The notes: a model not told the origin generated them from the letters alone. A DNA stretch of 64,000 nt from Spirochaetota bacterium (GCA_965208615.1 CBDBPB010000002.1:92666-156665); one strand, 5' to 3'. Counted from the stretch's first letter, positions 14,597-62,629 are shown. Numbers and translations: made by a program.

Positions 14597-15229
14597 TTAG
14601 AATTCTTTAAGAAGTGCCTTCCTAACCCTTATATCATTACGAAACTCTTTTTGAAAGTCCTTTTTTACCTTTTCAAAGTCATCAATAAGCGTAGTCTTGG
14701 TTATACTATAAAACTCATTATGGTCAAACTTAAGAGTACCTATATATACAGCTTTGTCATTAGGCTTAATCTTAACCATAGCCCTAATAGGAATTATAAG
14801 TTTGTTCGTATTTAAATTCCGAGTACCCTTATTAACATACTCACACTCCTGTAAGATAAACATCTCAAGTATATAAAAAGATTTTCTTTTAAACTTGATA
14901 TAAAAATCATTGTTAAGCCTAGCAATAATCCTATTAGTAAAATAGAATCCCATAGATGAATTATAAGTTTTTTCTGTAGGAGGATCTTGTATTTTTTCAT
15001 CAATCCAAATATGAATCTTATCTTTAAACTCGTAAGGAAAACAATTACGAGAGTCGCTAATATTATAAAAGCTATCCCCAAGAGGAGGGTCAAAAATAAT
15101 CTTTCCAATAACTAAAACTTCATTATCCTTTAAGTTGGAATCTTTCTCAAAATGTTCAACTTTATTAGGTAAGCTTGAACAACCCATAAATACTAATAAA
15201 ACTAAACATATAAACTTTATCTTATTCAT
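14597..15229 (-). CDS. Lipoprotein of unknown function
   Basis: Signal peptide with lipobox (VFMGC-SS). Confidence 0.45.
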   Translation of the reverse strand: MNKIKFICLVLLVFMGCSSLPNKVEHFEKDSNLKDNEVLVIGKIIFDPPLGDSFYNISDSRNCFPYEFKDKIHIWIDEKIQDPPTEKTYNSSMGFYFTNRIIARLNNDFYIKFKRKSFYILEMFILQECEYVNKGTRNLNTNKLIIPIRAMVKIKPNDKAVYIGTLKFDHNEFYSITKTTLIDDFEKVKKDFQKEFRNDIRVRKALLKEF

Positions 15230-15233
15230 AAAA

Positions 15234-15815
15234 CTAACCTTCAGTTTTTAAATTATCAGTAATCATTTTAATTTGTTTAGAATACTTATTCTTATCCATT
15301 TTTATAAACATAGTCCTTAACCTAATTAATAGATCCTTCTTTGATGGATTGGTAATAGTTATAAGGTCATAATCACTTCTTTTGTTTTTTAACATTACAT
15401 ATCTATATGAACCCATAAAATAAATACCAGGCTTTTTAACTCTTATAGCAGTTTTATTTTCACTAATAGAAAAATTATATACATAACTACCAAATTCCAA
15501 AGTCTCTTGAATAAAATCATAAGAGTAAAACTCCTCAATCTGATAAGGTCCAGGCTTAACTACAGAACTATACCAAAATAAATTACCTTTATCTATCTCA
15601 AAATCAAGATATATCTTTGGCTTAAAAGGATATCTACGAGCATGTATACCAGTTAGCTCTTTTCCAGGTGCATTTTTCATATCAATATAACCAAAAATAA
15701 GGGAACTCTTAAGAGAACTATTAGTATTATGAGATTCCTTTTTAGACACAGAATTACTGCAGTCAATAATAAAAAACGCCGCTATTAGTATTATAACTAT
15801 TAGTCTGAAATACAT
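15234..15815 (-). CDS. Putative exported protein or lipoprotein of unknown function
   Basis: Hydrophobic N-terminus with Cys shortly after (FFIIDCSN); same strand as and adjacent to the previous lipoprotein gene. Confidence 0.4.
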   Translation of the reverse strand: MYFRLIVIILIAAFFIIDCSNSVSKKESHNTNSSLKSSLIFGYIDMKNAPGKELTGIHARRYPFKPKIYLDFEIDKGNLFWYSSVVKPGPYQIEEFYSYDFIQETLEFGSYVYNFSISENKTAIRVKKPGIYFMGSYRYVMLKNKRSDYDLITITNPSKKDLLIRLRTMFIKMDKNKYSKQIKMITDNLKTEG

Positions 15816-18038: not shown

Positions 18039-19676
18039 TTATTTATCTGTGATAATTTGTGGAGAAGCTCCATAAAGTTCTCCCTCGGTTAATAAATACC
18101 TGAAATATGCTATAAAGCTATAACAATAACTTATAGCTTGAGAAGAGTTTGTTCCTTCCAATCTTTTTTTGCCGTCGATGGTATCAAAATATAGTTTTTC
18201 ACTACTATTTTGCGTTACAGAATCACTATTGTTAATCCAGGATAGTATTTTTTCAAGTTTTTTAGTTATGTCTGTTAGCCTTACACGGATAATATTACTA
18301 ATTCTGGTTTGATTATCTTCGAAGGTTAATAGCATCTCATTCTTTTTATAAGTGGATAAGCTAGAATTAATTTCTATATCATTTATCTCTTTTAGTATAG
18401 TAGTATAATCTTTAATTAGGTCATGGCATGAGTTAATGCCTAAGTATAGGTCGCTAAATTCTTTTTTAGTGTCAACCTTTTTTCCATCAAGAAGATCAAT
18501 ATTAAATTTTATTTTATTTGAGGTTAGGATAAAGGAGAACTCTTTTTCAAACTCTTCTAAAATAACATAAACTTTGAATATCTTATCGTTTTTATTAAAA
18601 TAAGCTATATTTCCTTTATCTTTAACAGTTTCATTTGTATAGTCGAGTTTATCTATCCATTCTTTTCCTTCTTTAAGTGATTCTGGTAGTTCTTCTTGTT
18701 TTTTTTCTTTTAGTTTTTCTTCATCATTTTTGTTTGTGGATAATGATTTTTGTTTATTAGTTTTAGTTTTTTTTCTTTCTTTTATTGCCTGTTTAATACG
18801 ATATTCAACTGTCTCACCTTCGTGTATATGCAATAGACCATATATTCTGCTTTGATCTTGGATATAAATATGTTCCATAAAGAGGTTAGAAATAGCATAG
18901 TGTAGTTTGTGAAGGCAGTTATGATAAATAATATCAATAGCTTTTTTTGATTTAGCCATATAATCTTTATAGCTTTGATCGTCTATAAGTTTTAAATCTT
19001 TTTTAATACTTAATGCTAGTTCAACTGCGTCTATAAGTTCGCTATAATAATGTCTAAATAAGTAAAGCCTACGATAAATCTTTTTTATAGGTTCTTCAAT
19101 AGCAATAAAGTCAATATTTCCTATACTATTTTCAGCTATTTTAGAGAAATGTTTAACGTCCTCGGCATTATAAAGATGGCTAGATATTCTTAATAGTTCA
19201 TATAGGTATATATTTTTTTTTATCATAAGAGTTATAAAAGTTTTATATTTAGCTTTTTTGGGATTTAAAATAAATTTTATTACATTATCAAGGTAATATA
19301 GTTCAGTGTTTAATAGAGTTTTTTGTTCGTTAATAAAAGTTTCTTTAAACTGATCCCCAAAAATAGTTTTTACTCCAACAAAAGTCGAAGCCAAATAAAG
19401 TGCAAGCTTATCAAAGAAGCTGTTGTGAGCAATAACTGGAACTCTATCTTCACTTTTTTGTTCTTCTTTATTTTCTTCACCTGCTAATTCTTTAAGTTTT
19501 CGTTTTTCTGATCCACCTATAATATGTTTACTATCTTTTACCTTTGTTTTTTTAACAGGAGGTTTAATAATCTTTCCACCATGATCAATAAATTTATCAA
19601 ATAGTTTTTTTTGTTCTTTTTTATTGAGTTTATCAGCTCCAATTTGTTTATGCAGTTTATCAAATTCGTTTTCCAT
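18039..19676 (-). CDS. Hypothetical protein (545 aa), Lys/Glu-rich
   Basis: Long ORF convergent with the VWA gene; no motif recognised. Confidence 0.4.
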   Translation of the reverse strand: MENEFDKLHKQIGADKLNKKEQKKLFDKFIDHGGKIIKPPVKKTKVKDSKHIIGGSEKRKLKELAGEENKEEQKSEDRVPVIAHNSFFDKLALYLASTFVGVKTIFGDQFKETFINEQKTLLNTELYYLDNVIKFILNPKKAKYKTFITLMIKKNIYLYELLRISSHLYNAEDVKHFSKIAENSIGNIDFIAIEEPIKKIYRRLYLFRHYYSELIDAVELALSIKKDLKLIDDQSYKDYMAKSKKAIDIIYHNCLHKLHYAISNLFMEHIYIQDQSRIYGLLHIHEGETVEYRIKQAIKERKKTKTNKQKSLSTNKNDEEKLKEKKQEELPESLKEGKEWIDKLDYTNETVKDKGNIAYFNKNDKIFKVYVILEEFEKEFSFILTSNKIKFNIDLLDGKKVDTKKEFSDLYLGINSCHDLIKDYTTILKEINDIEINSSLSTYKKNEMLLTFEDNQTRISNIIRVRLTDITKKLEKILSWINNSDSVTQNSSEKLYFDTIDGKKRLEGTNSSQAISYCYSFIAYFRYLLTEGELYGASPQIITDK

Positions 19677-20119: not shown

Positions 20120-21209
20120 ATGATCATAAGTAGCAAAGGGAATAGATTAAATATTAGAGCTTTGTTTTCTTTAAACAAGATTTTTATATTTGTCTTTATT
20201 TTTTTTATGTTTGTGTTAACCATGTTATTCTTCTCTAAGGAAGTTTTATCTCAGGATAGACACAGAATAGATTTTTTAAATAAAAATATAGTCAAAGGTA
20301 TTAATATAGGGGATAATTATTATAGTGAAGATAATGAGAATCTTTTGTATGCCTTAGCTCGTTTTGAGTTGAAGAACAAACAGTTTTTAATTGACGATAA
20401 TATTGTAGACTATAAAGGATATTTTAAACAGTTAAAGTTCCGGACTTATACAATTAAAAAGCGTGATACTCTTAGTAGTATTTCAAGGAAGTTTAATATA
20501 AATATTGCTACTTTAGTAAGTTTTAATAACATAGAGGTTGATAAGGCTTTAAGGATTAATAATCAGCTTTTTATTCCGAGTATGGATGGGATTTTATATT
20601 CTGTTAAAAAAGAGGATAGTTTAAGAGGTATTGTAAAGAAGTACTCAAAATATAATGTTAAGTTAGGCGACATAATTTATTTAAATAATATAGTAAATAA
20701 CAAGATAATAGAGAAAGAGCGTCTTTTTATTCCTGGAGCAAAAATAGCTAAGAATCTTCTTATTAAGAAGTTAGAGCATACTTTTGCAATACCGGCAAAA
20801 GGTAGGATAACATCATTAGTGGGGATGAGGCCTAGTATTTTTAAGGGTCCCCAAAAAGGGTTATGAATTTCATCCAGGGGTTGATATAAAGGCCTATTAT
20901 GGTTCACCTGTGAGGGCGGCCAAAAGTGGACGAATAAAGTTAGCAGGTAGAGTTAAGGGATATGGAAAAGTAATTTTCATTAACCATGGTAATGGTTTAC
21001 AGACTAGATATGGTCATTTATCCCGGATATTGGTAAAACGTGGAGAGAGGGTAAGGAAGAGGCAGGTAATTGGGAAGGTAGGCAGTACTGGCAATTCTAC
21101 AGGTCCACATCTTCATTTTGAAGTGAGAAAGTATGGTAAGGTAGTTAATCTTACTCGTAAGTTTAAGGGATTAAGGTTAAAGCGTGGCGGATACTGGAAG
21201 TGGAATTAA
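20120..21209 (+). CDS. LysM-domain M23 metallopeptidase, interrupted by a +1 shift near 20849-20860
   Basis: Two LysM-like segments in ORF 20120-20866. M23 signature continues in the next frame (EFHPGVDI...GSTGNSTGPHLHFEV) in ORF 20910-21209. Shift sits in a C4-A5-G3 run. Confidence 0.65.
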
Positions 21210-21240
21210 TTTTATAATTTGTAGACATATTATAGTTTTT

Positions 21241-21480
21241 ACTCATAGGGGATTAGGCATACTTTTTTTAGATTTACTGTGTGTTATCAAAGGTATTACT
21301 ATGCTATTGTAAAGAGGTTTTGCTAGTTTACTTTTTATAATTGTTGTTTATTTATAGGGGATTAGGCATACTTTTTTTAGATTTACTGTGTGTTATCAAA
21401 GGTATTACTATGCTATTGTAAAGAGGTTTTGCTAGTTTACTTTTTATAATTGTTGTTTACTCATAGGGGATTAGGTATAC
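21241..21480 (+). repeat. Tandem repeat, ~110 bp unit, about 2.2 copies
   Basis: Unit starting ...ataggggattaggcatactttttttagatttactgtg... recurs at 21241, 21351 and partially at 21459. Confidence 0.75.
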
Positions 21481-21859
21481 TTTTTTGAAGTTTTACACAT
21501 AACGTCAATATCTAATATTTAAATAATCCGCTCTACACCTTTATGGAACTGCAAATCCGTTAACACTTAATAAGGGTCTATAATCCTTAGTCTCAGTAAG
21601 GGATTCTTAATAGCTCCCGTAATGATGACTACTTGCATAAAAAGTGATATTTTGTGTTAATTACTAAGGCATTTAAACAGCACTTAAAGAGCATATAGGG
21701 ATAACCTGCTTGACACAGGAAAATAACTTTTCCATAAATATTTTAACTTTCCTGTTCCACAAAGAGATATAAAATACATCTGCCTTTACGTTATATGTCT
21801 TGCTTTTTACCTTGTAGACTTTGTCATAACTATGTCATAAAATGACAACTGAATTATTA
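21481..21859 (+). repeat. Conserved noncoding block, copy A (paired with 58116-58570)
   Basis: Near-identical long stretch in both loci (e.g. ...ccgctctacacctttatggaactgcaaatccgttaacactt...cttgacacaggaaaataacttttcc...); no ORF of 60 aa or more in any frame. Confidence 0.7.
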
Positions 21860-22712
21860 AATAATATCCCTTTAGCCTTAACAAAAAATAAATATACTTA
21901 CTCGTCTGACTTAAAGTCTAAGCGTACAAGTTTATATGCATGTCTATTTTCAACAACCTAAACTTGATGGAGTATCCGTTATACTAAACCATAAAAAAGA
22001 AAAACTATATTCCCTTTAACCTCAACAAAAAATAAATATACCTACCAGCCCTAACTCAAGGTCTGAGCGTACAAGTTTATATGCATGTCTATTGTCAACA
22101 ACCTAAACTTGATAGAGTGCCTGTTATACTAAACCATAAAAAAGAAAAACTATATTCCCCTTAGCCTCAACAAAAAATAAATATACTTACTCGCCTGACT
22201 TAAAGTCTAAGCGTACAAGTTTATATGCATGTCTATTGTCAACAACCTAAACTTGATGAAGTATCCGTTATACTAAACCATAAAAAAGAAAAACTATATT
22301 CCCCTTAGCCTCAACAAAAAATAAATATACTTACTCGCCTGACTTAAAGTCTAAGCGTACAAGTTTATATGCATGTCTATTGTCAACAACCTAAACTTGA
22401 TGAAGTATCCGTTATACTAAACCATAAAAAAGAAAAACTATATTCCCCTTAGCCTTAACAAAAAATAAATATACTTACCCGCCTGACTTAAAGTCTAAGC
22501 GTACAAGTTTATATGCATGTCTATTGCCAACAACCTAAACTTGATGGAGTGCCTGTTATACTAAACCATAAAAAAGAAAAGCTATATTCCCCTTAGCCTT
22601 AACAAAAAATAAATATACTTACTCGCCTGACTCAAGGTCTGAGCGTACAAGTTTATATGCATGTCTATTGTCAACAACCTAAACTTGATGAAGTATCCGT
22701 TATACTAAATTA
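21860..22712 (+). repeat. Tandem array, 144-145 bp unit, about 6 copies
   Basis: Landmark acaaaaaata recurs at 21881, 22025, 22170, 22314, 22458, 22602. Unit contains ...gtctaagcgtacaagtttatatgcatgtctattgtcaacaacctaaacttgatg.... Confidence 0.85.
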
Positions 22713-23070
22713 TCACATATTATGTATAGGTATGGCAATTGGGAATATTAAAACCTCTTATTAAAATATAGCTATCCCCTTTGAAATAGGTTTAAGTACT
22801 TTTTCAGGATGCGGAGAGGATGATATATCCTGTGAGGCTCTGGGTGATTGTGATAAAAATGTTGAAAGTCAGCTAGAGAAAGCAAAAGATGAGGTTACAG
22901 CTGCAAATAAAGAGGTTAACGATGCAAAGAAAGAGGTTAAAAAGGATAAAAAATTAACGCCTGAAGAATTAGAAGAAGCAAGAAAAAAATTAGAAGAAGC
23001 AAGAAAAAAATTAGAAGAAGCAGAAAAAAGATTAAAAGAAGCAAAAAAGATATTAGAAAAGCTAGAAGAT

Positions 23071-25524
23071 ATGTTCCTTAAGGTTTGCAAGGTAACAAGA
23101 ACTACGGATGCTTATATTAACGCTGTTACTTGTAATAAGACTCTCGAGGATAAGTGTAATGGTGAGTGGGATTCACAAGACTGTATAGCGTCTCTTGGTA
23201 CGGCAATTGGGGTATGTAGAGTAGAAAAAGATACAACTACTCGTACTGACGTTGTTACTTGTAATACGATGGTTCAAAGTGAGTGTGATGACAAACTAGG
23301 TGAGTGGGGCTTGCAAAGCTGTACTACAAATCCTGGTACTAAAAGGCTAAAAGCAGTGCCAGAAGCAATATGCAAGGTAATTAGAGATACAGCTTCTCAT
23401 GCTAATGTAGTTACTTGTAATACAATGGTTCAAAGTGAGTGTAGTAAAAGTAAAAGAAAAGGTAATTGGAATCCACAAATCTGTAATCCAGATATTGGTA
23501 CGCCAATAAGTAAAACCTGTAAGATAATAAAAGATTCGGATACTCATACTGATGTTGTTACTTGTCAGACTACTACTAAGGCTGATTGTCCAAGTCCAAG
23601 TGTGTGGGATCCAAAAACCTGTATTCCGTCTATTGGTAATACATGTAAGATAACAGAAAATACGGATAGTCATACCGGCGTTGTTACTTGTAAAAAAACT
23701 ACTAAGGATGATTGTCAAGGTGAGGGGCGTGCGTGGGGTCTACTAGCCTGTACTGAGTCTATTGGTACTCCAATAACTAAGACATGCAAAGTGGAAAAAG
23801 ATACGGATAGTCATACCGGCGTTGTTACTTGTGATAAAACTACTAAAACTCAGTGTGATACTGATAAGGGTACCTGGGACCCACCAAGCTGTGAGCCGTC
23901 TGATGGTACAAAAAGGCAAACACCAGTGGAAGAAAAGGTTTGTAAGATAACAAAAGATACGGATACTCATACAGGCGTTGTTACTTGCGATAAGAATATT
24001 AAGACTGAGTGTGATACTAAACAAGGTGAGTGGGATCCACAAACCTGTACTCCGTTTACTGGTCAGCCCAAGACTAAGATTTGTAAGATAACAACAGAGA
24101 CGTATACTCATACAGGCGTTGTTACTTGTGATACAACTACTAAGGCTCAGTGTGATACTGATAATGGTGATTGGGACTCACAAAGCTGTACTACAAATCC
24201 TGGTACGCCTAAGACTAAGGTTTGCAAGATAACAGAAAATACGCCTACTCGTAGAGGTGTTGTTACTTGTGATACAGCTACTAAAACTCAGTGTGATACT
24301 GATAAGGGTGAGTGGGGCTTAAAAAGTTGTACTCCATCTAAGGGTAAGGCAATTAAGGTTTGTAAGATAACAACAGAGACGCCTAGTCATACAGGCGTTG
24401 TTACTTGTGAGAAAACTACTAAAACTAAGTGTGATACTAAACATGGTGAGTGGGACTCAACAAACTGTACTCCGTCTGCTGGTACGCCCATACCAAATGG
24501 TACGCCCATACCACCTGGGGTTGTTTTTGTAAAAGCTGGAACTCGTACTACTAAAAATGGGAAATCCTGGAATACTGCTTATAGTGATCTTCAAAAAGGT
24601 ATTGAGGAAGCCTCAGAAAAGTTTAAGTCTACTAAAAAACCTGTTAAGGTATATGTAGCCCAAGGGACTTATAAGCCTCAGAGTAGGCCAAATGGTGGTA
24701 CTAGTGATCGTCATAACCATTTTTCATTAAGGAATGGTGTAGAGGTTATTGGGGGTTTTCCTGGTCTAATTACTGGTGAGTCTAATAATCCTAACTACTA
24801 TAAGACTGTCCTAAGCGGTGATATCAGAAGAGTGGGCGATGATAGTGATAACGCCTATCATGTTTTTTATCATCCAGCTACTGCAAAGCTAGATAACACT
24901 GCAAAGTTAGTAGGGGTTATAATTACCAAAGGCAATACTAATACTAGTAGTAATTCCCATAGTTCTGGAGGAGGCATGTTTAATTATGAGAGCTCTCCAA
25001 CGTTAACAAATGTGGAGTTTAATAGTAATACGGCATCATACGGAGGGGGCATGGATAATACTAGTAGTAGCTCTCCAACGTTAACAAATGTGGAGTTTAA
25101 TAGTAATACGGCATCATACGGAGGGGGCATGTTTAATTTTAATAATAGCTCTCCAACGTTAAAAGATGTGACTTTTACTAGTAATACGGCTACTTATAGA
25201 GGAGGGGGCATGTATAATTATAATGAGAGCTCTCCCACTTTAACAAATGTGACTTTTACTAGTAATACGGCTAATAGGTACGGAGGGGGCATGGTTAATT
25301 GGGGTAATAGCAAGCCCACTTTAGATAATACGGTGATTTTTAATAAAAACATTGCTGGTAGTGTTGCTAATAGCCAAATAGGCAAAGGCGGGGCTATTTA
25401 TAATTATTCCTCAAGCATAACAGGCACACCAACCTATGGAACGGGTACTAATGAAAATAAAAAGGTTGTCAAAAATAATAATGGCACATATAAACTTATA
25501 AAGTCAAACCTTGACTCAGACTAA
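23071..25524 (+). CDS. Pmp-like repeat surface protein, paralog 1; lacks signal peptide
   Basis: About ten Cys-rich ~47-51 aa modules (CKITKDTDTHTGVVTCDKTTKTxCDTDKGxWDPxSC), then a choice-of-anchor / beta-helix-like region and five or more GGGM-Y/F-N...VTFTSN units. The frame is open upstream to 22765 but has no ATG/GTG/TTG before 23071. Confidence 0.6.
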   Translation: MFLKVCKVTRTTDAYINAVTCNKTLEDKCNGEWDSQDCIASLGTAIGVCRVEKDTTTRTDVVTCNTMVQSECDDKLGEWGLQSCTTNPGTKRLKAVPEAICKVIRDTASHANVVTCNTMVQSECSKSKRKGNWNPQICNPDIGTPISKTCKIIKDSDTHTDVVTCQTTTKADCPSPSVWDPKTCIPSIGNTCKITENTDSHTGVVTCKKTTKDDCQGEGRAWGLLACTESIGTPITKTCKVEKDTDSHTGVVTCDKTTKTQCDTDKGTWDPPSCEPSDGTKRQTPVEEKVCKITKDTDTHTGVVTCDKNIKTECDTKQGEWDPQTCTPFTGQPKTKICKITTETYTHTGVVTCDTTTKAQCDTDNGDWDSQSCTTNPGTPKTKVCKITENTPTRRGVVTCDTATKTQCDTDKGEWGLKSCTPSKGKAIKVCKITTETPSHTGVVTCEKTTKTKCDTKHGEWDSTNCTPSAGTPIPNGTPIPPGVVFVKAGTRTTKNGKSWNTAYSDLQKGIEEASEKFKSTKKPVKVYVAQGTYKPQSRPNGGTSDRHNHFSLRNGVEVIGGFPGLITGESNNPNYYKTVLSGDIRRVGDDSDNAYHVFYHPATAKLDNTAKLVGVIITKGNTNTSSNSHSSGGGMFNYESSPTLTNVEFNSNTASYGGGMDNTSSSSPTLTNVEFNSNTASYGGGMFNFNNSSPTLKDVTFTSNTATYRGGGMYNYNESSPTLTNVTFTSNTANRYGGGMVNWGNSKPTLDNTVIFNKNIAGSVANSQIGKGGAIYNYSSSITGTPTYGTGTNENKKVVKNNNGTYKLIKSNLDSD

Positions 25525-25554
25525 TAAGTATATTTATTTAGTCCGTTAAAATTA

Positions 25555-25580
25555 AGGGGAGTATAGCTCCTCTTTTTTTT
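25555..25580 (+). terminator. Rho-independent terminator shared by the paralog family
   Basis: aaggggagtatagctcctc followed by T8; same element after all three paralogs. Confidence 0.7.
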
Positions 25581-25762
25581 ATGGTTTTTATAACAAAGTA
25601 GCATAAATAGCAGTTATAGCATAGATAGACTTGACTTATCCTTCTATAAATATTATCCTATGTGATAGAACAAGTTAATTTACTTTTAATTCTATAGTTT
25701 TTAATAAAAAGTTGTTTTTTGTTTAGTTTGAGTTATCTTATAAAAAAACAAGGAATTAAGTT

Positions 25763-27136
25763 ATGACAAAAAAGAATTATTTAAACATTTTAATAATACT
25801 ATTAATTAGTATTTCGTTAGTTAGGGGCAAGTGCGATTCCGATAAGGTAATAAGTCCTCCTTCTGATGGTACAGAAAGGCCAGAACCAGTGGAAGAAAAG
25901 GTTTGTAAGATAACAACAGATACGGATACTCGTAGAGGTGTTGTTACTTGTGAAAAGAATACTACTAATTGTCAAGGTGAGTGGGTCGTAGGATGTCGTC
26001 CATCTAACGGTATACTTATTCCAAAAGCTCAAAAAGATCAAATTTTTGTAAAAGCTTTAAACCAAGATGAAAGGCGCTCTAATGAAGATGGAAAGTCCTG
26101 GACAACTGCCTTTAGTGATCTTCAAAAAGGTATTAAGTATGCTTTTGAGAATAATAAAAAGATGGTATATGTAGCCCAAGGGACTTATAAGCCTACTAGT
26201 TATCCAAATGGTGGTAGTGGTGATGATCGTTATAAGCATTTTTCATTAAGGAATGGTATAGAGGTTATTGGAGGCTTTCCCGGTGAAAAGCTTGATGAGC
26301 CTAATAATCCTGAGCAATATGAGACTATTCTAAGCGGTGATATTGGAACTAAAGATGATAGAGATAACGTCTATCATGTTTTTTATCATCCTGATGGTAC
26401 AAACCTAAATAACTCAGCAAAGCTAGCTGGGGTTACAATTACCCAAGGCTATGCTTATTTTGCGTCTCCTGATGTTAATGAGCCTCGTAAGTTAGGAGGG
26501 GGCATGTATAATTTTAAGAGCTCTCCAACGTTAACAACTGTGACTTTTCGTAATAATACGGCTAGAGATGGAGGGGGCATGTATAATTTTAAGAGCTCTC
26601 CAACGTTAACAGGTGTGGCTTTTACTGAAAATACGGCTATTACCGGAGGGGGCATGCGTAATTATAAGGATAGCTCCCCAACGTTAAAAGATGTGACTTT
26701 TACTAAAAATGAGGCTACTGTTAACGGAGGGGGCATGCATAATTGGGATAATAGCTCTCCAAAGTTAACAGATGTGACTTTTACTAAGAATAAGGCTACT
26801 ATTAACGGAGGGGGCGGCATGTATAATTATTATTATAGCTCCCCAAAGTTAACAGGTGTGACTTTTAATAGTAATACGGCTAGTAGGTACGGAGGGGGCA
26901 TGTTTAATTTTGTTGGTTGCTCTCCAGAGTTCATAAGTAATGTGGTTTTTAATAAAAACATTGTTGGTAGTGTTGGTAGTGACCTAATAAGCTACGGCGG
27001 GGCTATTTATAATAGTAAGACTTCAGCCATAACAGGCACTCCAACCTATGGAACGGGTGATGATGAAAATAAAAAGGTTGTCAAAAATACAGATGGCACA
27101 TATAGTTTTGTAAAGTCAAACAGTTGGCCATGGTAA
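25763..27136 (+). CDS. Pmp-like repeat surface protein, paralog 2 (short form)
   Basis: Own N-terminal hydrophobic leader; one Cys module, then the same beta-helix-like region and about seven GGGM units; same C-terminal segment (ITGTPTYGTG.DENKKVVKN) and 3' flank as paralog 1. Confidence 0.7.
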   Translation: MTKKNYLNILIILLISISLVRGKCDSDKVISPPSDGTERPEPVEEKVCKITTDTDTRRGVVTCEKNTTNCQGEWVVGCRPSNGILIPKAQKDQIFVKALNQDERRSNEDGKSWTTAFSDLQKGIKYAFENNKKMVYVAQGTYKPTSYPNGGSGDDRYKHFSLRNGIEVIGGFPGEKLDEPNNPEQYETILSGDIGTKDDRDNVYHVFYHPDGTNLNNSAKLAGVTITQGYAYFASPDVNEPRKLGGGMYNFKSSPTLTTVTFRNNTARDGGGMYNFKSSPTLTGVAFTENTAITGGGMRNYKDSSPTLKDVTFTKNEATVNGGGMHNWDNSSPKLTDVTFTKNKATINGGGGMYNYYYSSPKLTGVTFNSNTASRYGGGMFNFVGCSPEFISNVVFNKNIVGSVGSDLISYGGAIYNSKTSAITGTPTYGTGDDENKKVVKNTDGTYSFVKSNSWPW

Positions 27137-27165
27137 TAAGTATATTTATTTAGTCCGTTAAAATT

Positions 27166-27192
27166 AAGGGGAGCATAGCTCCTCTTTTTTTT
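27166..27192 (+). terminator. Rho-independent terminator (family 3' flank)
   Basis: ggggagcatagctcctc hairpin followed by T-run. Confidence 0.7.
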
Positions 27193-27293
27193 ATGGTTTT
27201 TATAACAAAGTAGCATAAATAGCAGTTATAGCATAGATAGACTTGACTATATATTTAATTTTGATATATATTTTTATAGTGCATAGAAGACTA

Positions 27294-32136: not shown

Positions 32137-33625
32137 ATGCCAGAGGTAAATAAGTTATTAAGTGTTACAATTGACGGTCAGAAGTATGAGGTTAAGGAAG
32201 GTTTAACTGTACTACAGGCATGTTTAGATTTTGGTATTGATGTGCCTTATTTTTGTTATCATCCTTGTTTATCTACTGCTGGTAATTGTAGGATGTGTTT
32301 AGTTAAAATAGATAAAATACCTAAGCTTGCTATATCATGTGCTACTATGGTTGCTGAGGGGATGAACATATACACTAAAGACCCAGAGGTAATTAAGGCT
32401 CGTAATGCTATTATGGAGTTTTTATTAATAAATCATCCACTTGACTGTCCTGTATGTGATCAGGCTGGTGAATGTACTTTACAGGACTACTCATACCGAC
32501 ATGGGAGAGATTCGGGCAGGTTTACCGAAGAGCGTAATGTTAGGCACAAAAAAGACTTTGGGCCAAATGTCAAATATTGGGGTAGTCGGTGTATTATGTG
32601 TACAAGGTGTATACGTTTTTGTCAGGAGGTTAGTGGTACTGACGAGTTATACGCTTTTAACAGAGGGGATCGTTCTGTAATTGATATATTCCCTGGCATA
32701 GAGCTTAATAATCCATTATCTATGAATGTGGTTGATATTTGTCCTGTTGGAGCTTTAGTTAGTTCTCATTTTTTATATCAGGCACGGGTATGGAATATGG
32801 AGCAAAGGCATAGCCTATGTATAGAGTGTTCTACTGGATGTCATAACTAGGGTTGATTCTTTAGGCAATAGGATTAAGCGTATAGTACCTAGTTCAAATG
32901 ATCGATTTATGTGTGATCATGGTAGGCTAAGTTATGGATATATGTATTCTGAGGATAGGCTTCGTTATCCTTTGGTTAATGGGGATAAGTTAGCTTCGTG
33001 GTCAAAGGTAATGTCCGTATTTAGGGATAAGATAAGACGGTATGCTAGTAAGTCTAGTAGGTTAGCTTTTTTGATTTCTGCATGGAATACTAATGAGGCT
33101 ATGTTTATGGTTAACAGGCTTAAGGATAGTTGCTTAGACAAGAGTGACGTCTATTTGTATTATAAGCCTGATGAAGAGGATAAGGTTTTTCCTAAGTTTA
33201 GGATTAGTGGTGATCGTAATCCTAATATAAATGGTTTTAAGGCGGTTTTTAAAACGGGTGACATTAAAAAGCACTCAGTTAATTTATTAGTAGATAGGGT
33301 TAAGGCTAAAGAGGTTGATGTAGTTATAATAATAGGGGGTATATCCAGTGGATATATGCCTGAGAGTATTACTAATGTTTTATCTGATCTTAAAGATGTT
33401 ATTGTAATAGATTATATTAGTTCATCTTTTAGTAAGGCTGCGAGTTTGGTTTTACCTTCACTTAGTTATGCTGAGAAGGCTGGTAGTTATGTTAATGATC
33501 AGCTTAAGGTTAAAGCTGTTAAGCCTGTTATCAATCCTTTTACCCCTGGTAAGTCAGAAGATGTTATTTTACAAGAGCTTATCATTGCCCTATCAGAAAA
33601 AGGTGAGGTTTTTATCTACTGCTGA
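32137..33625 (+). CDS. nuoG: NADH-quinone oxidoreductase subunit G (short form), with apparent +1 shift near 32845-32852
   Basis: N-terminal 2Fe-2S / 4Fe-4S cysteine clusters in ORF 32137-32850. Continuation ...RVDSLGNRIKRIVPSSNDRFMCDHGR... in the next frame (ORF 32909-33625). Confidence 0.75.
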
Positions 33626-33735: not shown

Positions 33736-35359
33736 TTGGGACAACAGTTAAACTTGTTAGATATTGATAATGATAATAATTATATAACTATTAGTGAGGC
33801 ATCTAAGTGGGCAAGTGAATACTTGAACAGAAGTGTGACTAAGTCTCAAATATCATATTTAATAAATTATGCTAGGGTAGGGTCAATTAAGATTGATAGA
33901 AAAAATCATATAAACCTTAATGAGCTAAAAAATTATTATGACAATAGAAGTGAGAATGAAAAAAATAAGATTCTTAATGGGTTAAGTAAAGACGTTAACC
34001 TGTCCCTTTCATTTTCTGAATATAATGAATATGAGAGGACAAAGCATGTTCATAGGTTGCATCCATATAAAGGCAAATTTATTACTCAGCTGGTGGAGTA
34101 TTTTTTAAGTAATCATACTGACGGCTTTAAAAAAGAGGTTTTCTTTAAACAGGGAGATATTGTATTAGATCCTTTTGCAGGCTCTGGAACTACTTTAGTT
34201 CAAGCTAATGAGTTAGGAATACATTCTATTGGTATTGAGCTTTCTAGTTATAATGCTATTATTTCTAGAGTAAAGACTGAAAGCTATGAAATGGACAAAA
34301 TGAGACAAGAAGGTGATAGAATTATAGAGCTATTATATCACCTTAAAAAAGAGACTACTGCTTATTATGATGAGTTAGATAAGCTTATTAGGTTATATAA
34401 TGAAAAGTACTTCCCATCTCCTAAATATCGAAAGGCTATACATGCTAAAGAGATTAATGAAAAGAGCTATGGGAAAGAAGTATTAGGTAAATTTAACTTT
34501 GATTATGAAAAAGCTATTAAAAAAGTTTAATAAAATACACCCAGATAAATTATTTGAGAATAAAAGTCATCATAGTTTTTTAGAGTATTGGCTTACAGAG
34601 GATATCCAAAAAGAGATTAAAGTTATAAAAGAGATAATTGAGCTTATCAAAGATGAGAAGTTAAAATATCTTTTTATGGTTATATTGGGCAGGGCTGTTA
34701 GATCGTGTAGAGCAACAAAACATATAGATTTAGCAACTTTAACAAAGCCTCAATTTGCTCCTTATTATTGTGAGAGAAAGCATTTTAAATTGTGTAGACC
34801 AGTAAATAGTTTATTAAGTCATTTTAAGAAATATTATTTGGATTCGATTAGAAGGATTAAAAGTTTTAGTATGCTTAAAACTAACGCTTTAAATCTTGTT
34901 TTAGAAGGTGACTCATATAGTATTGAGCTTGATAAGGTGTTGGAGGTTAAGTCTTTTTTTAATAAAGCAGGTAAATATAAAATTGATGGGATATTCACAT
35001 CACCTCCTTATGTTGGTCAAATTGATTATCATGAGCAACATCTATATGCTTATGAGATTTTTAATTTGCCTATGAAAAAGGATAGAGAAATAGGGATATT
35101 AGGTCTTGGTAAAAGTAAAAAGGCAAGGGATCAATATTCTAAGGGTATTACAAAAGTATTTAGAAATTTGAAATCTTATTTAAAACCTTATGCTAACTGC
35201 TTTATAGTTGCTAATGATCGGTTGCAATTGTATCCAGATATAATAAATAAGTCAGGATATGAGCTTGTAAATGAGTTTAAGAGACCTGTACTAAATAGAG
35301 TTGAGAAAGATAGACGAGTATATGAAGAAAGTATTTTTCATATAAGGCCTAAAAGTTAA
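33736..35359 (+). CDS. DNA amino-methyltransferase (N6-A or N4-C), read as one gene with +1 shift in an A6 run near 34523-34528
   Basis: First ORF carries HRLHPYKGKF and SAM motif VLDPFAGSGTT; second ORF carries catalytic motif TSPPY. The second frame is open from 34487, so one extra A joins them. Confidence 0.65.
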
Positions 35360-35361
35360 AT

Positions 35362-58111: not shown

Positions 58112-58115
58112 TTCT

Positions 58116-58570
58116 ATCAGTCATTTTATTAGTGAAGATTTCAGTAGTTTACTTTTTATAGTTGTTATTTATCATAGAGGATTAGGCATACTTTTTTGAA
58201 GTTTTACACATAACGTCAACATGTAATATTTAAATAATCCGCTCTACGCCTTTATGGGACTGCAAATCCGTTAACACTTAATAAAGGTCTATAATTCTTA
58301 GTTCCAGTAAGGGATTCTTAATAGCTCCCGTAATGATGACTACTTGCATAAAAAGTGATATTTTGTGTTAATTACTAAGGCATTTAAACAGCACTTAAAG
58401 AGCATATAGGGGTAACCTGCTTGACACAGGAAAATAACTTTTCCATGAATATCTTAACTTTCCTGTTCCACAAAGAGATATAAAATACATCTGCCTTTAC
58501 GTTATATGTCTTCATTTTGCCTTGTATCCCTCGTCATTACTACGTCATAAAATGATAACTAAATTATCAT
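58116..58570 (+). repeat. Conserved noncoding block, copy B (paired with 21440-21859)
   Basis: Near-identical to copy A over its length, with scattered substitutions. Confidence 0.7.
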
Positions 58571-58860
58571 AAAAAAGAAGAGCCGTCCTCCCCTTAATTT
58601 TAACAAAAAAATAAACTATACTTACTAACTTTACTCAAAGTCTAAGCGTACAAGTTTATATGCATGTCTATTTTCAACAACCTAAACTTGATGGAGTGCC
58701 TGTTATACTAAACCATAAAAAAGAAAAGCTATATTCCCCTTAGCCTTAACAAAAAATAAATATACCTACCAGCCCTAACTCAAGGTCTGAGCGTACAAGT
58801 TTATATGCATGTCTATTGTCAACAACCTAAACTTGATGAAGTATCCGTTATACTAAATTA
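58571..58860 (+). repeat. Tandem array, 144-146 bp unit, about 2 copies
   Basis: Same unit family as 21860-22712. Confidence 0.75.
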
Positions 58861-59076
58861 TTACATATTATGTATAGGTATGCCAATTGGGAATATTAAA
58901 ACCTCTTATTAAAATATAGCTATCCCCTTTGAAATAGGTTTAAGTACTTTTTTTAGTTGTATTTTTCTTTGAGATTGATTACCTTATAGTAGATTTATTT
59001 TTAAATGATATAGCTTTATATGCGTTGGCCTATTAGAGCTTAACGTTTTAAGCTAAAAAAAACAATAGGGGGAATC

Positions 59077-61743
59077 ATGAAGAAAGTATTCTTTATTTTA
59101 CTAACTTTAGCTTTATTAACAGGATGCGGAGAGGATGATATATCCTGTGAGGCTCTGGGTGATTGTGATAAAAATGTTGAAAGTCAGCTAGACAAAGCAG
59201 ATAAAGATGTTGCAGCTGCAGAGGAAGAGCTAAATAAATTAGAAGTAGATGGGATAAATGATGGAAATAAAGAAGAGGTAGTAGGAAAAGTAGAAGATAT
59301 AGCAACAGGAGTACAGAAAGCAGTAGATAGCTTAAAAGATGTAGTCGAAGAAGAAAAACTAAAAAATATAAAAAATAAACTTATAACAATATTAAATAGT
59401 TTAACAGACGCAGACACAAAAAAAGTAAGAGAAATAGTAAATGTGCTAAAAACAGCAGTAAAAGGCCTAAAAACAGCAGTAGAAGCTTTAAAAGGCTTAG
59501 TAGACGAGGGAAAAGGAAAAAAGACCTGTAAGGTAACAAGTAATACGGATACTCATAGAGGCGTTGTTACTTGTGATAAAACTACTAAAACTAAGTGTGA
59601 TACTGATAAGGGTACCTGGGACCCACCAAGCTGTGAGCCGTCTGCTGGTACAGAAAGGCAAACACCAGTGGAAGAAAAGGTTTGTAAGGTAACAAAAGAT
59701 ACGGATACTCATACAGGCGTTGTTACTTGTGATAAAACTACTAAAACTAAGTGTGATACTGATAAGGGTACCTGGGACCCACCAAGCTGTGAGCCGTCTG
59801 CTGGTAAGGCAATTAAGGTTTGTAAGGTAACAAAAGATACGGATACTCATGCTAACGTTATTACTTGTGATACAATGGTTCAAAGTGAGTGTAGTAAAAG
59901 AGATGGTGAGTGGGGAGTGCAATGTACTAAATCTAATGGTATGCCTAAGATTAGGCTTTGTAAGGTAAAAAAAGATACGGATGATTATATCGGCGTTATT
60001 ACTTGTGATACAACTACTAAGGCTAATTGTCAAGGTGAGTGGGATTCACAAGACTGTAGGCCATCTGATGGTACTCCAATTAAGATATGTAAAGTAAAAA
60101 AAGATACGACTACTCATATCGGCATTGTTACTTGTAAGAAGACTACTAAAACTAAGTGTAATACTGATAAGGGTACCTGGGGGTCCACCAAGCTGTAATC
60201 AAAATCCTGGAGCTCTCATACCAGCTGGGGTTGTTTTTGTAAAAGCTGGAACTCGTACTACTAAAAACGGTAAAACCTGGAAAAACTGCTTATAGTGACC
60301 TACAAAAGGCTATTGATGAAGCTAAGAAAGCTAATAAACCTAAGGTATATGTAGCCCAAGGGACTTACAAGCCTACTGGTCATCCAAATGGTGGTAATGG
60401 TGGACGTGAAAAGCATTTTTCATTAAGGAATGGTGTAGAGGTTATTGGTGGTTATAAAGGTGAAAAGGTTGATGAGTCTAATAATCCTAACTACTATAAG
60501 ACTATCCTAAGCGGTGATAATAACGCCTATCATGTTTTTTATCATCCCGCTATTGCAAACTTAGATAAAACAGCAAAGTTAGTGGAGGTTACTATTACCA
60601 AAGGCAATGCTAATGGTAGTGATCCTCATGAATACGGAGGGGGCATGTATAATTATAATAGCCATCCCACTTTAACAACTGTGATTTTTGAGAGTAATAA
60701 GGCCGGATGGGGAGGGGGCATGTATAATGAGTATAGCTCTCCAGAGTTAAGAAATGTGACTTTTGAGAGTAATAAGGCCGGATGGGGAGGGGGCATGTAT
60801 AATAAGGATAATAGCAAGCCAAAGTTAACAAATGTGACTTTTACTTAGTAATGAGGCCTCATACGGAGGGGGCATGTTTAATATTAATAGTTCTCCAGAG
60901 TTAAAAGATGTGACTTTTGATAGCAATGAGGCTAAGCAATACGGAGGGGGCATGTATAATAAGGATAATAGCAAGCCAAAGTTAACAAATGTGACTTTTA
61001 CTAGTAATGAGGCCTCATACGGAGGGGGCATGTTTAATATTAATAGTTCTCCAGAGTTAAAAGATGTGACTTTTGATAGCAATGAGGCTAAGCAATACGG
61101 AGGGGGCATGGGTAATGAGAAGAGCTCTCCCACTTTAAAAGATGTGGAGTTTACTAGTAATACGGCCGACTTAGGAGGGGGCATGTATAATAATAATAGC
61201 TCTCCCAAGTTAACAAATGTGACTTTTACTAGTAATACGGCTAATAGGTACGGAGGGGGCATGTTTAATAGTGATAGCTATCCAACGTTAAGAAATGTGA
61301 CTTTTACTAGTAATGAGGCCTCATACGGAGGGGGCATGACTAATTATAAAACCTTTCCCACTTTAAAAGATGTGACTTTTACTAGTAATACGGCTACTAA
61401 AGGAGGGGGCATGTATAATTATAAAACCTTTCCCACTTTAAAAGATGTGACTTTTAATAGCAATGAGGCTAAGCAATACGGAGGGGGCATGTATAATAGT
61501 GATAATAGCAAGCCCACTTTAGATAATACGGTGATTTTTAATAAAAACATTGCTGGTAGCATTGAAGATAAAAAAGAAGGAAAAGGCGGGGCTATTTATA
61601 ATGTTGTTGGTAAAGATAATATTCCTGACTCAAGCATAACAGGCACACCAACCTATGGAACGGGTACTAATGAAAATAAAAAGGTTGTCAAAGTGGGTAA
61701 TACATATAAACTTGTACAGTCAAACCTTGAGTCAGGCCAGTAA
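59077..61743 (+). CDS. Pmp-like repeat surface lipoprotein, paralog 3, interrupted by three +1 shifts (about 60183, 60275, 60848)
   Basis: RBS plus lipoprotein signal peptide MKKVFFILLTLALLTGC. Six Cys modules, then the beta-helix-like region and about twelve GGGM units across three consecutive frames (ORFs 59077-60198, 60582-60848, 60874-61743). Confidence 0.65.
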
Positions 61744-61771
61744 GTATATTTATTTAGTCCGTTAAAATTAA

Positions 61772-61797
61772 GGGGAGCATAGCTCCTCTTTTTTTTA
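61772..61797 (+). terminator. Rho-independent terminator (family 3' flank)
   Basis: ggggagcatagctcctc followed by T8. Confidence 0.7.
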
Positions 61798-61847
61798 TTG
61801 GTTTTAATAACATTGAAATATTTATAGATGTAGGTTATATTTACTTA

Positions 61848-62397: not shown

Positions 62398-62629
62398 TAT
62401 AGTTTTATAATTACTTAGTATTAACTTACTTAACGGTGCTTAGCTAACAGGCTTATTGCCTGGTAGATTATATGGCTTAGTGGACAACTTAAATTATATC
62501 ATTTTGATTTGTCTTAGATGGACTATTTTATTATACTAAGGGCTAGATATTTATATAATATTTTATATTCACAGAAATAGTTTATCTATATTTATTAAGT
62601 TGTATATAAAATAGATTAGGGTTATAAAG

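What the first reader, a model, noticed from the sequence alone, without database searches (positions are those of the whole stretch)
22765..27192. Multi-copy family of repeat-built Pmp-like surface protein genes
Seen in sequence: three paralogs (22765-25524, 25763-27136, 59077-61743) share a beta-helix-like core with about 20-aa units of the form SSPTLTNVTFTSNTA..YGGGMYN and a common C-terminus, and all are followed by the same 3' flank and terminator. They differ in the number of Cys-rich ~47-51 aa modules (about 10, 1 and 6) and of GGGM units (about 5, 7 and 12), and in their N-termini. Established knowledge: GGA[ILV]/FxxN repeats define chlamydial polymorphic membrane proteins. Here the GGGM/F-x-x-N pattern is joined to a lipoprotein signal and lacks an obvious C-terminal beta-barrel. 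Inference: a variable surface-exposed adhesin-like family diversifying by repeat expansion and recombination between copies.
Basis: partly seen in the sequence, partly recalled or inferred. Interest (0 to 1): 0.8.

Follow-up and report, generated by a model that had tools for sequence, protein, structure and literature searches.

The report
Spirochaete beta-helix surface protein gene family
An uncultured Leptospira-like spirochaete carries several diverged copies of a secreted beta-helix protein of a common, widespread type, and two copies sit on a lineage-restricted stalk (lipid anchor signal, coiled coil, chain of small four-cysteine modules); in this assembly one of those two copies has lost its start and the other is frameshifted.

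Summary
The three paralogs are real and are not an assembly duplicate (72-82% DNA identity). Pmp-repeat and Beta_helix profiles match above their cut-offs, and AlphaFold2 gives a confident right-handed beta-helix. There is no Pmp middle domain, autotransporter barrel or choice-of-anchor Q domain. The genes belong to the very large non-chlamydial Pmp-repeat beta-helix family (>3,500 hits).

- Gene 1 (22765-25524) has no start codon or signal peptide. A clean 167-bp deletion removed the RBS, the ATG and 14 codons.
- Gene 3 (59077-61743) carries three 1-nt insertions at short base runs. These are probably assembly errors, because nuoG, an M23 peptidase and an isochorismatase gene are broken in a similar way.
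- Only gene 2 is intact.
- Cys modules number 10, 1 and 5. Coils are 25-27 aa long.

New points:
- The 4-Cys module and the N-terminal stalk occur in only four proteins among billions. Three are from this contig. The fourth, from a sister genome, joins the same stalk to a metzincin-like head.
- The 144-bp arrays upstream of genes 1 and 3 are inverted, amplified copies of the family's 3' end plus terminator.
- Identity between copies is mosaic and dN/dS is about 1, which fits recombination-driven diversification.

Surface exposure and adhesion remain inference. This is a new variant of a known kind, of moderate interest.

The parts
21867..22709 (-). 144-bp tandem array (5.8 copies) upstream of gene 1. 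Read on the minus strand, each unit is a decayed copy of the last ~75 nt of a family coding sequence (..KKVV..YKLV...SG.*), the stop codon, the 3' flank and the terminator.
   Evidence: TRF. blastn of the unit against the gene 3' ends. Alignment A5.
22626..22804 (+). Upstream block 98% identical to 58774-58952 ahead of gene 3. It holds a promoter-like site (22739-22767) and ends at the deletion junction 22804/22805.
   Evidence: (family D7).
22765..25524 (+). Gene 1: a 919-codon open frame with no start codon and no signal peptide (5'-deleted copy). In order it encodes ..GCGEDDISCEALGDCDKNVES, a heptad coiled coil (21-nt repeats), 10 four-Cys modules (23086-24510), the beta-helix N-cap (24511-24966), 6 coils and the family C-terminus. 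The public record calls it from the internal ATG at 23071 (817 aa, P0244).
25554..25582 (+). Intrinsic-terminator-like hairpin plus T-run after gene 1.
25763..27136 (+). Gene 2: an intact 457-aa ORF. It has a signal peptide (MTKKNYLNILIILLISISLVRGKC), one four-Cys module (25904-26032), the beta-helix N-cap, 7 coils and the family C-terminus.
   Evidence: (P0001, 100% identical).
27166..27194 (+). The same terminator-like hairpin plus T-run after gene 2.
58568..58857 (-). Two copies of the same 144/145-bp unit upstream of gene 3. One retains a recognisable terminator hairpin on the minus strand (58595-58575).
58953..59119 (+). 167-bp segment present at gene 3 and absent at gene 1. It holds the 5' UTR, the RBS (GGGGGAATC), the ATG at 59077 and the first 14 codons (MKKVFFILLTLALL).
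   Evidence: Alignment A1.
59077..61743 (+). Gene 3: lipobox signal (LLTG|C), a coiled coil of ~130 aa, 5 four-Cys modules (59527 to ~60190), the N-cap, 13 coils (about 60632-61600) and the family C-terminus. It is interrupted by three 1-nt insertions (60179-83 G5, 60281-85 A5, 60845-46 TT). The repaired ORF is 887 aa.
   Evidence: LPAM_1; P0121 is the first fragment in the public record.
61770..61798 (+). The same terminator-like hairpin plus T-run after gene 3.

Best explanation
This is a chromosomal multigene family in an uncultured spirochaete related to Leptospiraceae. It encodes exported proteins whose distal 'head' is a right-handed parallel beta-helix. The helix is made of 25-27-residue coils of the widespread Pmp-repeat type (..SSPTLTNVTF.SN.A...GGGM.N). 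It has the family's conserved N-terminal cap and a short lineage-specific C-terminal end. It has no autotransporter barrel.

Two members (genes 1 and 3) place this head on a portable N-terminal stalk. The stalk consists of a lipoprotein signal, a short Cys-containing motif, a heptad coiled coil and a chain of a lineage-restricted ~45-aa four-cysteine module (CK[VI]..T....V[VI]TC-x7-C-x..W-x4-C....G). The module is presumably stapled by two disulfides. The number of modules (1, 5 or 10) would set how far the head sits from the membrane.

The family diversifies in two ways. One is unequal recombination within three tiers of tandem coding repeats (21-nt heptads, ~141-nt Cys modules, 75-78-nt coils). 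The other is patchy gene conversion between copies.

In this assembly gene 2 is intact. Gene 1 has recently lost its translation start and signal peptide and is a dead or silent copy. Gene 3 is probably intact in the cell, because its three 1-nt insertions look like assembly errors.

Shown: homology, fold, anatomy, the deletion, the mosaic identity, the rarity of the stalk, and reuse of the stalk with another head.

Inferred: lipid anchoring, disulfides, surface exposure, and a binding (adhesin-like) role.
For: Family and fold:
- Pmp-repeat and Beta_helix profile hits are above their cut-offs.
- More than 3,500 homologues were found, with E values down to 1e-125. Sources name them parallel beta-helix repeat, predicted outer membrane repeat or choice-of-anchor Q proteins.
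- The family consensus reproduces the window's repeat and N-cap.
- The AlphaFold2 model has mean pLDDT 82, and above 90 over residues ~90-400. It shows a regular three-strand-per-coil pattern.
- Foldseek matches are all right-handed beta-helices: PfbA adhesin, Rhombotarget A, AlgE4 and Pel9A.

Organism: the IlvB gene in the window has its best named hits in Spirochaetota and Leptospiraceae.

Stalk:
- Gene 3 has the lipobox LLTGC (LPAM_1).
- The coiled-coil region is encoded by 21-nt tandem repeats and gives only weak coiled-coil and Lpp-type hits.
- All 16 modules keep 4 Cys, 1 Trp and 1 Gly invariant.
- The module profile found only this contig's proteins among 1.84e9 representatives.
- The word-index search found only P0244, P0121, P0001 and P0245 among 5.8e9 clusters.
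- P0245 comes from a sister genome. It has the same signal, motif, coiled coil and one module, followed by an HEIGHLLGLRH metzincin-like domain.

Diversification:
- Module order is shuffled between genes. g1m6 and g3m1 are 91% identical, while other module pairs are 55-85%.
- Exact runs of 43-74 nt occur in alignments that are 45-81% identical overall. None of 5,000 shuffles reached these runs.
- Nei-Gojobori dN/dS is 0.7-1.05 in the N-cap, above 1 in the C-terminus and coiled coil, and 0.8-1.6 between modules.
- Presumed orthologues have 7, 8 and 5 coils, and 14 versus 11 coils.

State of the copies:
- The gene 1 deletion is shown in alignment A1.
- Similar single-site frame breaks occur in the M23 peptidase, nuoG and isochorismatase genes. 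The M23 and isochorismatase breaks lie at short base runs, and the M23 one is a +1 insertion.
Against: - No experiment or expression data exist. Lipidation, disulfides, localisation and ligand are all inferred.
- Gene 2's ..VRGKC is not a canonical lipobox.
- AlphaFold2 can over-confidently predict beta-solenoids for repeat sequences (bioRxiv 10.1101/2024.10.30.621056, seen).
- Gene 3 has 3 frameshifts in 2.7 kb, against at least 3 in the other ~60 kb. This enrichment could mean real decay.
- dN/dS near 1 is also what pseudogenes show. The estimates come from short, recombining, AT-rich sequences.
- Orthology of the sister-genome proteins rests only on similar signal peptides. Their loci could not be retrieved.
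Confidence: 0.65

Rival explanations
1. Silent-copy and expression-site variation. The two stalked loci share a nearly identical 5' block. Only one of them carries the 167-bp segment with the RBS, the ATG and the signal-peptide start. Recombination across the identical flanks would move this segment, or move heads and modules, and so switch which variant is displayed, as in spirochaetal antigenic variation.
For: - The sequences flanking the indel are the most similar parts of the two loci: 98% over 179 nt upstream and 73 nt identical downstream, against about 75% in the gene bodies.
- Gene 1 keeps a 919-codon open frame despite having no start.
- Identity between copies is mosaic.
- The same stalk carries another head in a sister genome.
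Against: - There is only one start-less copy, not an array of cassettes.
- No recombinase, inverted repeats or direct repeats at the junction were noted by inspection of the alignment. Ten other ORFs scattered across the window that were scanned are housekeeping or have no family match.
- No population data show both states.
- A simple recent deletion explains the same facts.
Confidence: 0.1
2. Decaying family. Genes 1 and 3 are both true pseudogenes, and the repeat differences are relics of neutral slippage with no current function. At most gene 2 is functional.
For: - Gene 1 lacks a start.
- Gene 3 has three frameshifts, denser than in the rest of the window.
- dN/dS is about 1.
- Amplified gene-end debris lies upstream of both genes.
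Against: - Apart from the three 1-nt insertions in gene 3, both frames stay open in a 33-37% GC genome: 919 codons in gene 1 and 887 in repaired gene 3.
- All 16 modules keep the 4 Cys, the Trp and the Gly.
- The three insertions lie at short base runs. Core genes such as nuoG are also frameshifted at single sites, which points to assembly error.
Confidence: 0.15
3. The beta-helix heads are enzymes acting on polysaccharides (lyase, epimerase or hydrolase) held at a distance from the membrane. They are not adhesins.
For: - Most structural neighbours are carbohydrate-active beta-helix enzymes: AlgE4, Pel9A, GH87 and phage tailspikes.
- The same stalk carries an enzyme (a metzincin-like protease) in the sister genome.
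Against: - No catalytic family profile matches.
- The top structural match is an adhesin (PfbA).
- TM-scores are low, 0.2-0.4.
- The coils are near-perfect sequence repeats without an evident active-site groove, as in Pmp-type passengers.
Confidence: 0.2
4. Assembly artefact: one gene duplicated or mis-joined by the assembler.
For: The region is rich in repeats, and the assembly carries indel errors.
Against: - The copies are only 72-82% identical. They have different module orders and numbers and different unique flanks.
- The public record holds the same gene products (P0001, P0121, P0244).
Confidence: 0.02

Closest known systems
Widespread non-chlamydial Pmp-repeat parallel beta-helix proteins (named 'choice-of-anchor Q domain-containing', 'parallel beta-helix repeat' or 'predicted outer membrane repeat' protein; PF02415, PF13229, TIGR01376)
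   Same: They share the N-terminal cap (..YVA.GTY.PT..F.L.NGV.I.GGF.G.E..T.LSGDIG..DN.YHV..) and the same 25-26-aa coil consensus (SSPTLTNVTFSGN.A..GGGMYN). E values reach 1e-125 with 35-48% identity over the core.
   Different: - The window proteins lack the C-terminal choice-of-anchor Q domain, NF041518. It is present in P0005 and P0034 and absent from the three window genes and from two sister-lineage proteins, P0006 and P0030.
- They end in a short lineage-specific tail.
- Two of them carry the coiled-coil and 4-Cys-module stalk, which was not found elsewhere.
Chlamydial polymorphic membrane proteins (Pmps; type Va autotransporters)
   Same: They have FxxN and GG[AG][ILVM] tetrapeptides within a ~25-aa coil of a beta-helix. 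They form a multigene family with variable repeat number and are thought to be adhesins (PMC11166332).
   Different: The window proteins have no Pmp middle domain and no C-terminal 12-strand barrel. They would be anchored, if at all, by an N-terminal lipid. GGGM replaces GGA[ILV] in all but the last coil.
PfbA of Streptococcus pneumoniae (4mr0) and Rhombotarget A (9cdv)
   Same: These are the best Foldseek matches. Both are exported right-handed beta-helix proteins. PfbA is described in its PDB entry as a surface adhesin.
   Different: Sequence identity is only 11-13% and TM-scores are 0.28-0.41. Their anchors differ (LPXTG and GlyGly-CTERM respectively, from own knowledge). Neither has a Cys-module stalk.
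Spirochaetal variable surface lipoprotein families and stalk-repeat adhesins (Borrelia Vsp/Vlp/VlsE, Treponema Tpr, Leptospira Lig proteins with Big-domain arrays). This comparison is from own knowledge and was not tested here.
   Same: They are paralogous families of (lipo)proteins in spirochaetes that diversify by recombination. The Lig proteins place a binding region on a chain of small repeated domains.
   Different: No sequence relationship was found. There is no cassette array or telomeric expression site here. The repeated stalk unit is a different, 4-Cys domain.

Membership tests
Chlamydial Pmp autotransporters | GGA[ILV] and FxxN repeats (PF02415 / TIGR01376) | tested here: met
   PF02415 gives 27.4 bits (gene 2) and 52.1 bits (gene 3 C-terminal fragment) against a cut-off of 20.6. 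TIGR01376 gives 28.1 and 67.2 bits against 15. Gene 1 scores 17.0 bits on PF02415, below the cut-off, and 16.0 on TIGR01376. The motif is GGGM in most coils and GGAI in the last.
Chlamydial Pmp autotransporters | Beta-helical passenger domain | tested here: met
   AlphaFold2 pLDDT is above 90 over residues ~90-400 of gene 2. Foldseek hits are all right-handed beta-helices.
Chlamydial Pmp autotransporters | Pmp middle domain and C-terminal autotransporter beta-barrel | tested here: not met
   No such Pfam or NCBIfam hit at E<=1. The proteins end ~50 residues after the last coil.
Non-chlamydial Pmp-repeat parallel beta-helix family | Conserved N-cap plus ~25-aa SSPTLTNVTFSGN.A..GGGMYN coils, with significant full-length homology | tested here: met
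   3,515 proteins at E<=1e-3 among the candidates scored, with top E values of 1e-125. Consensus of alignment A4.
Choice-of-anchor Q domain proteins (NF041518) | 58-aa C-terminal choice-of-anchor Q domain | tested here: not met
   The model hits P0005 and P0034 (33-35 bits, cut-off 25). It hits none of the window genes at E<=1, and neither P0006 nor P0030 at E<=0.01.
Bacterial lipoproteins | Signal peptide ending in a lipobox [LVI][ASTVI][GAS]C | tested here: inconclusive
   Gene 3 has MKKVFFILLTLALLTG|C, with LPAM_1 at E 0.006 and 17.4 bits, below the cut-off of 20. Gene 2 has ..LVRGKC, which is atypical. Gene 1 has no signal. Lipidation itself cannot be tested here.
Cassette-based antigenic variation systems (vls, tprK and msp2 type) | One expression site plus several promoterless donor cassettes, with segmental gene conversion seen within a population | not testable with these tools
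   One start-less copy and mosaic identity are compatible with this. No read-level or population data are available, and no related loci could be fetched.
Any described Cys-rich repeat domain | Profile or fold match of the 4-Cys module to a known family | tested here: not met

The most novel reading that the evidence does not exclude
The lipobox, coiled-coil and 4-Cys-module stalk is a mobile display cassette, together with its conserved 5' block (amplified inverted gene-end array, promoter region and the 167-bp start segment). Recombination across the near-identical flanks would couple one translation start and anchor to alternative heads (different beta-helices here, a metalloprotease in a sister genome). 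It would also reset stalk length. This would be a previously undescribed head-swapping and expression-switching system in a free-living spirochaete lineage, built on a new disulfide-stapled domain.
Probability: 0.1. Interest if true: 0.7.

Novelty: new variant of a known kind. Interest (0 to 1): 0.38.

Why it matters
The beta-helix heads are ordinary members of a huge, poorly characterised family of exported bacterial proteins. Their presence and multiplicity are therefore not surprising.

The stalk is the new element. Its small four-cysteine domain was found in only two genomes among billions of proteins. The domain is arrayed 1, 5 or 10 times, follows a heptad coiled coil and a lipoprotein signal, and is reused with a protease head in a sister genome.

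If this is confirmed, it would add a new bacterial spacer domain. It would also give a tidy example of how tandem coding repeats and gene conversion tune the reach and identity of displayed proteins in an uncultured Leptospira-related lineage.

There is a practical lesson too. The apparent pseudogenes here are a mixture of one real deletion and probable assembly indels.

Tried and rejected
- Retrieving the source contig or sister-genome loci by exact protein look-up failed. This applied to gene 2/P0001, P0018, P0030, P0047 and P0245. Only a 956-bp Logan contig carrying nuoC was found.
- The genome-contig scan with gene 2 returned only distant Chloroflexi, Planctomycetes and Bacteroidota loci.
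- The metagenome scan for the shared 3' flank returned nothing.
- Cluster look-up gave no names.
- Rfam and tRNA scans of the window were empty.
- The shared upstream block 21487-21866 has no notable ORF or RNA structure (z = -1.1).
- The two extra hits of the module profile (P0122, P0123) were inspected and rejected as unrelated repetitive sequences.
- Minus-strand ORFs inside the genes (23347-23718, 23743-24111, 59497-60033, 60825-61262) are shadow ORFs of the repeats.
- Assembly duplication was rejected on identity and anatomy.
- A link between the downstream rhomboid protease and the 'Rhombotarget A' fold match was considered and dropped. The proteins have no C-terminal transmembrane or GlyGly signal.

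Full report
**What is in the sequence**

ORF listing and translation show three related coding regions on the + strand.

- Gene 2 (25763-27136) is an intact 457-aa ORF.
- Gene 1 is open from 22765 to 25524 (919 codons). However, 22765 simply follows a stop codon, and no ATG, GTG or TTG occurs before 23071.
- I aligned the gene 1 upstream region with that of gene 3 (alignment A1). The two are almost identical on both sides of a clean 167-bp gap in gene 1. The missing segment corresponds to 58953-59119 and holds the 5' UTR, the RBS, the ATG at 59077 and the first 14 codons of the signal peptide. Gene 1 therefore starts, in effect, at ..SGCGEDDISCEALG without any export signal.
- Gene 3 (59077-61743) begins with a canonical lipoprotein signal, MKKVFFILLTLALLTG|C. 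It is split over three frames by single extra bases at a G5 run (60179-83), an A5 run (60281-85) and a TT (60845-46). Deleting one base at each site restores an 887-aa ORF collinear with gene 1.
- The public record holds the same broken products: P0121 (373 aa) and P0244 (817 aa, called from the internal ATG).

**Are the frameshifts real?**

The same window has single-site frame breaks in three unrelated genes: a LysM/M23 peptidase (20866/20910), nuoG (32850/32909) and an isochorismatase gene (62201). The M23 and isochorismatase breaks lie at short base runs, and the M23 one is a +1 insertion. Copies of a 175-bp repeat also differ by GG versus GGG. A broken nuoG inside an otherwise complete nuo operon argues for indel errors in a long-read-type assembly rather than decay. 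I therefore treat the gene 3 frameshifts as probably artefactual. One caveat remains: three frameshifts in 2.7 kb is denser than the window average. The 167-bp deletion in gene 1 is not that kind of error.

**Repeat anatomy**

- TRF finds periods of 75-81 nt (beta-helix coils), about 141 nt (Cys modules) and 21 nt (heptads of the coiled coil).
- Coil motifs number 6, 7 and 13, spaced 25-27 residues apart. The last coil is GGAIYN.
- Cys modules number 10, 1 and 5.
- Aligning all 16 modules gives invariant C1, T15, C16, C24, W31, C36 and G41.
- All three genes end with ITGTPTYGTG..ENKKV..YKL..SN. They are followed by the same flank and hairpin-plus-T8 terminator.
- The copies are 72-82% identical in DNA and have different module orders, so they are not an assembly duplicate.
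- No further copy lies in the window. A fourth paralogue (P0006, 591 aa, 14 coils, no Cys module) lies elsewhere on the same 168-kb contig.

**What family is it?**

- PF02415 and TIGR01376 (Pmp repeat) and PF13229 (Beta_helix) match above their cut-offs.
- A word-index search with gene 2 found more than 3,500 homologues, with E values down to 1e-125. These are mostly unnamed metagenomic proteins. Where sources name them, they are called parallel beta-helix repeat, predicted outer membrane repeat or choice-of-anchor Q proteins, from Anaerolineae, Planctomycetes and others.
- The consensus of 68 of these reproduces both the N-cap and the SSPTLTNVTFSGN.A..GGGMYN coil. The 'GGGM/FxxN' pattern is therefore the family norm.
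- The AlphaFold2 model of gene 2 built with that alignment has mean pLDDT 82, and above 90 across the helix. Foldseek returns only right-handed beta-helices, led by the adhesin PfbA and by Rhombotarget A.
- There is no Pmp middle domain, no autotransporter barrel and no choice-of-anchor Q domain. The choice-of-anchor Q model does hit the non-spirochaete homologues P0005 and P0034.
- PF02415 is known not to be specific to Chlamydia (PMC11166332).
- The verdict on membership: the proteins work like, and are homologous to, Pmp-type passengers. They are not Pmp autotransporters. They are members of the broad non-chlamydial Pmp-repeat beta-helix family.

**Organism and context**

The window is chromosomal. 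It holds an aioA fragment, thi genes, a nuo operon, ilvBN and a P-type ATPase. The IlvB protein has its best named hits in 'MAG: Spirochaetota bacterium' (67%) and in Leptospiraceae and Leptospira (~57%). This points to an uncultured lineage related to Leptospiraceae.

**The stalk is the unusual part**

- A profile of 15 modules was searched against 1.84 billion representatives. It hit only this contig's own proteins plus two spurious repeat proteins.
- A word-index search with the N-terminal half of gene 1 found four proteins in 5.8 billion clusters. Three are from this contig. The fourth is P0245, from the 605-kb contig of a sister genome.
- P0245 has the same lipobox signal, the same GCGEDDISCEALG.CDKNVES motif, a KEAEKRL heptad coiled coil, the same LED.FLKVCK junction and one Cys module. 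It then continues into a domain with HEIGHLLGLRH, giving metzincin-type hits just below the cut-off.
- The stalk is therefore a portable unit joined to different heads.
- Conversely, the presumed orthologues of gene 2 in sister genomes (P0018, P0030; same signal peptide) lack the Cys module. The module region of gene 2 is 88-89% identical in DNA to parts of genes 1 and 3, against about 72% elsewhere. This suggests the module was transferred between paralogues.

**Evidence for recombination and fast protein change**

- Module similarities cross genes and are out of order. g1m6 and g3m1 are 91% identical, g1m1 pairs best with g3m4, and g1m3 with g3m3.
- Exact runs of 43-74 nt occur inside alignments that are 45-81% identical overall. 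None of 5,000 column shuffles reached these runs.
- Nei-Gojobori dN/dS is 0.7-1.05 in the N-cap, above 1 in the C-terminus and coiled coil, and 0.8-1.6 between modules. The scaffold residues stay invariant throughout.
- Coil numbers differ between presumed orthologues: 7, 8 and 5, and 14 versus 11.
- These findings fit diversification of an exposed protein. They would also fit relaxed constraint, and the estimates are noisy.

**The upstream arrays**

Both stalked genes are preceded by about 1.5 kb of shared sequence (91-98% identity), including a 144-bp tandem array of 5.8 and 2 copies. Read on the minus strand, each unit aligns with the last ~75 nt of the family coding sequence, its stop codon, the 3' flank and the terminator. 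The arrays are therefore amplified debris of an inverted family member's 3' end. The whole block plus the gene was duplicated between the two loci. The highest identity surrounds the 167-bp indel (98% upstream, 73 nt exact downstream). The deletion is therefore recent, or the flanks are being homogenised.

**Interpretation**

The best-supported reading (about 0.65) is a family of exported beta-helix proteins of a common type. Two of them are mounted on a lineage-restricted lipoprotein, coiled-coil and Cys-module stalk of variable length. The family diversifies by unequal recombination and gene conversion. One copy was recently inactivated. Adhesion and surface exposure are inferred by analogy with Pmps and PfbA.

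The rivals are:
- a silent-copy and expression-site switch (0.1);
- true decay of genes 1 and 3 (0.15);
- enzymatic rather than adhesive heads (0.2, not exclusive of the main reading);
- an assembly artefact (0.02).

Its interpretation is partly supported. Novelty lies in the stalk, not in the Pmp-like core. This is a new variant of a known kind, with interest about 0.4.

Noticed in passing
window 57299-58118: A 175-bp tandem array (4.7 copies, 98% identical). Each unit repeats the last ~90 nt of the DUF294/CBS/cNMP-binding gene (55548-57392) plus the downstream sequence. Like the 144-bp arrays, it is an amplified gene 3' end. Copies differ by GG versus GGG.
   Followed up: partly
window 21238-21486: A 109-bp tandem repeat (2.3 copies, 96%) starts 29 nt after the M23 peptidase stop codon. 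Part of the unit recurs at 58145-58207, at the start of the block shared with the gene 3 upstream region.
   Followed up: partly
window 20120-21209; 32137-33625; 61848-62400: A LysM/M23 peptidase, nuoG and an isochorismatase-family gene are each split by a single-site frameshift. The M23 and isochorismatase breaks are at short base runs (near CCCCAAAAAGGG and CAAAAC). The nuoG break is near AACTAGGG. This suggests indel errors in the assembly rather than pseudogenes.
   Followed up: partly
window 33736-35844: Fragments of a restriction-modification system sit inside the nuo operon between nuoG and nuoH. They match the N6_N4 DNA methylase family and the TdeIII-type restriction endonuclease family, each only partially.
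   Followed up: no
window 62630-63481: A rhomboid protease gene (Rhomboid plus DUF6576) lies ~900 bp downstream of gene 3. One of the best fold matches of the beta-helix is 'Rhombotarget A'. The window proteins have no C-terminal transmembrane or GlyGly signal, so this is probably coincidence.
   Followed up: partly
window 5-1432: The C-terminal 475 aa of an arsenite oxidase large subunit (TIGR02693, E 3e-201) lies at the window start. This hints at arsenite oxidation in this spirochaete lineage.
   Followed up: no
window 14597-15815 (-) and 18039-19676 (-): Three minus-strand ORFs (210, 193 and 545 aa) have no Pfam match. They sit in an otherwise plus-strand, strongly GC-skewed region.
   Followed up: no
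window 59020-59060: Within the 167-bp segment unique to gene 3 there is a perfect 7-bp hairpin (AGCTTAAcgttTTAAGCT) followed by A8. It lies just upstream of the RBS and could be a 5'-UTR element.
   Followed up: no
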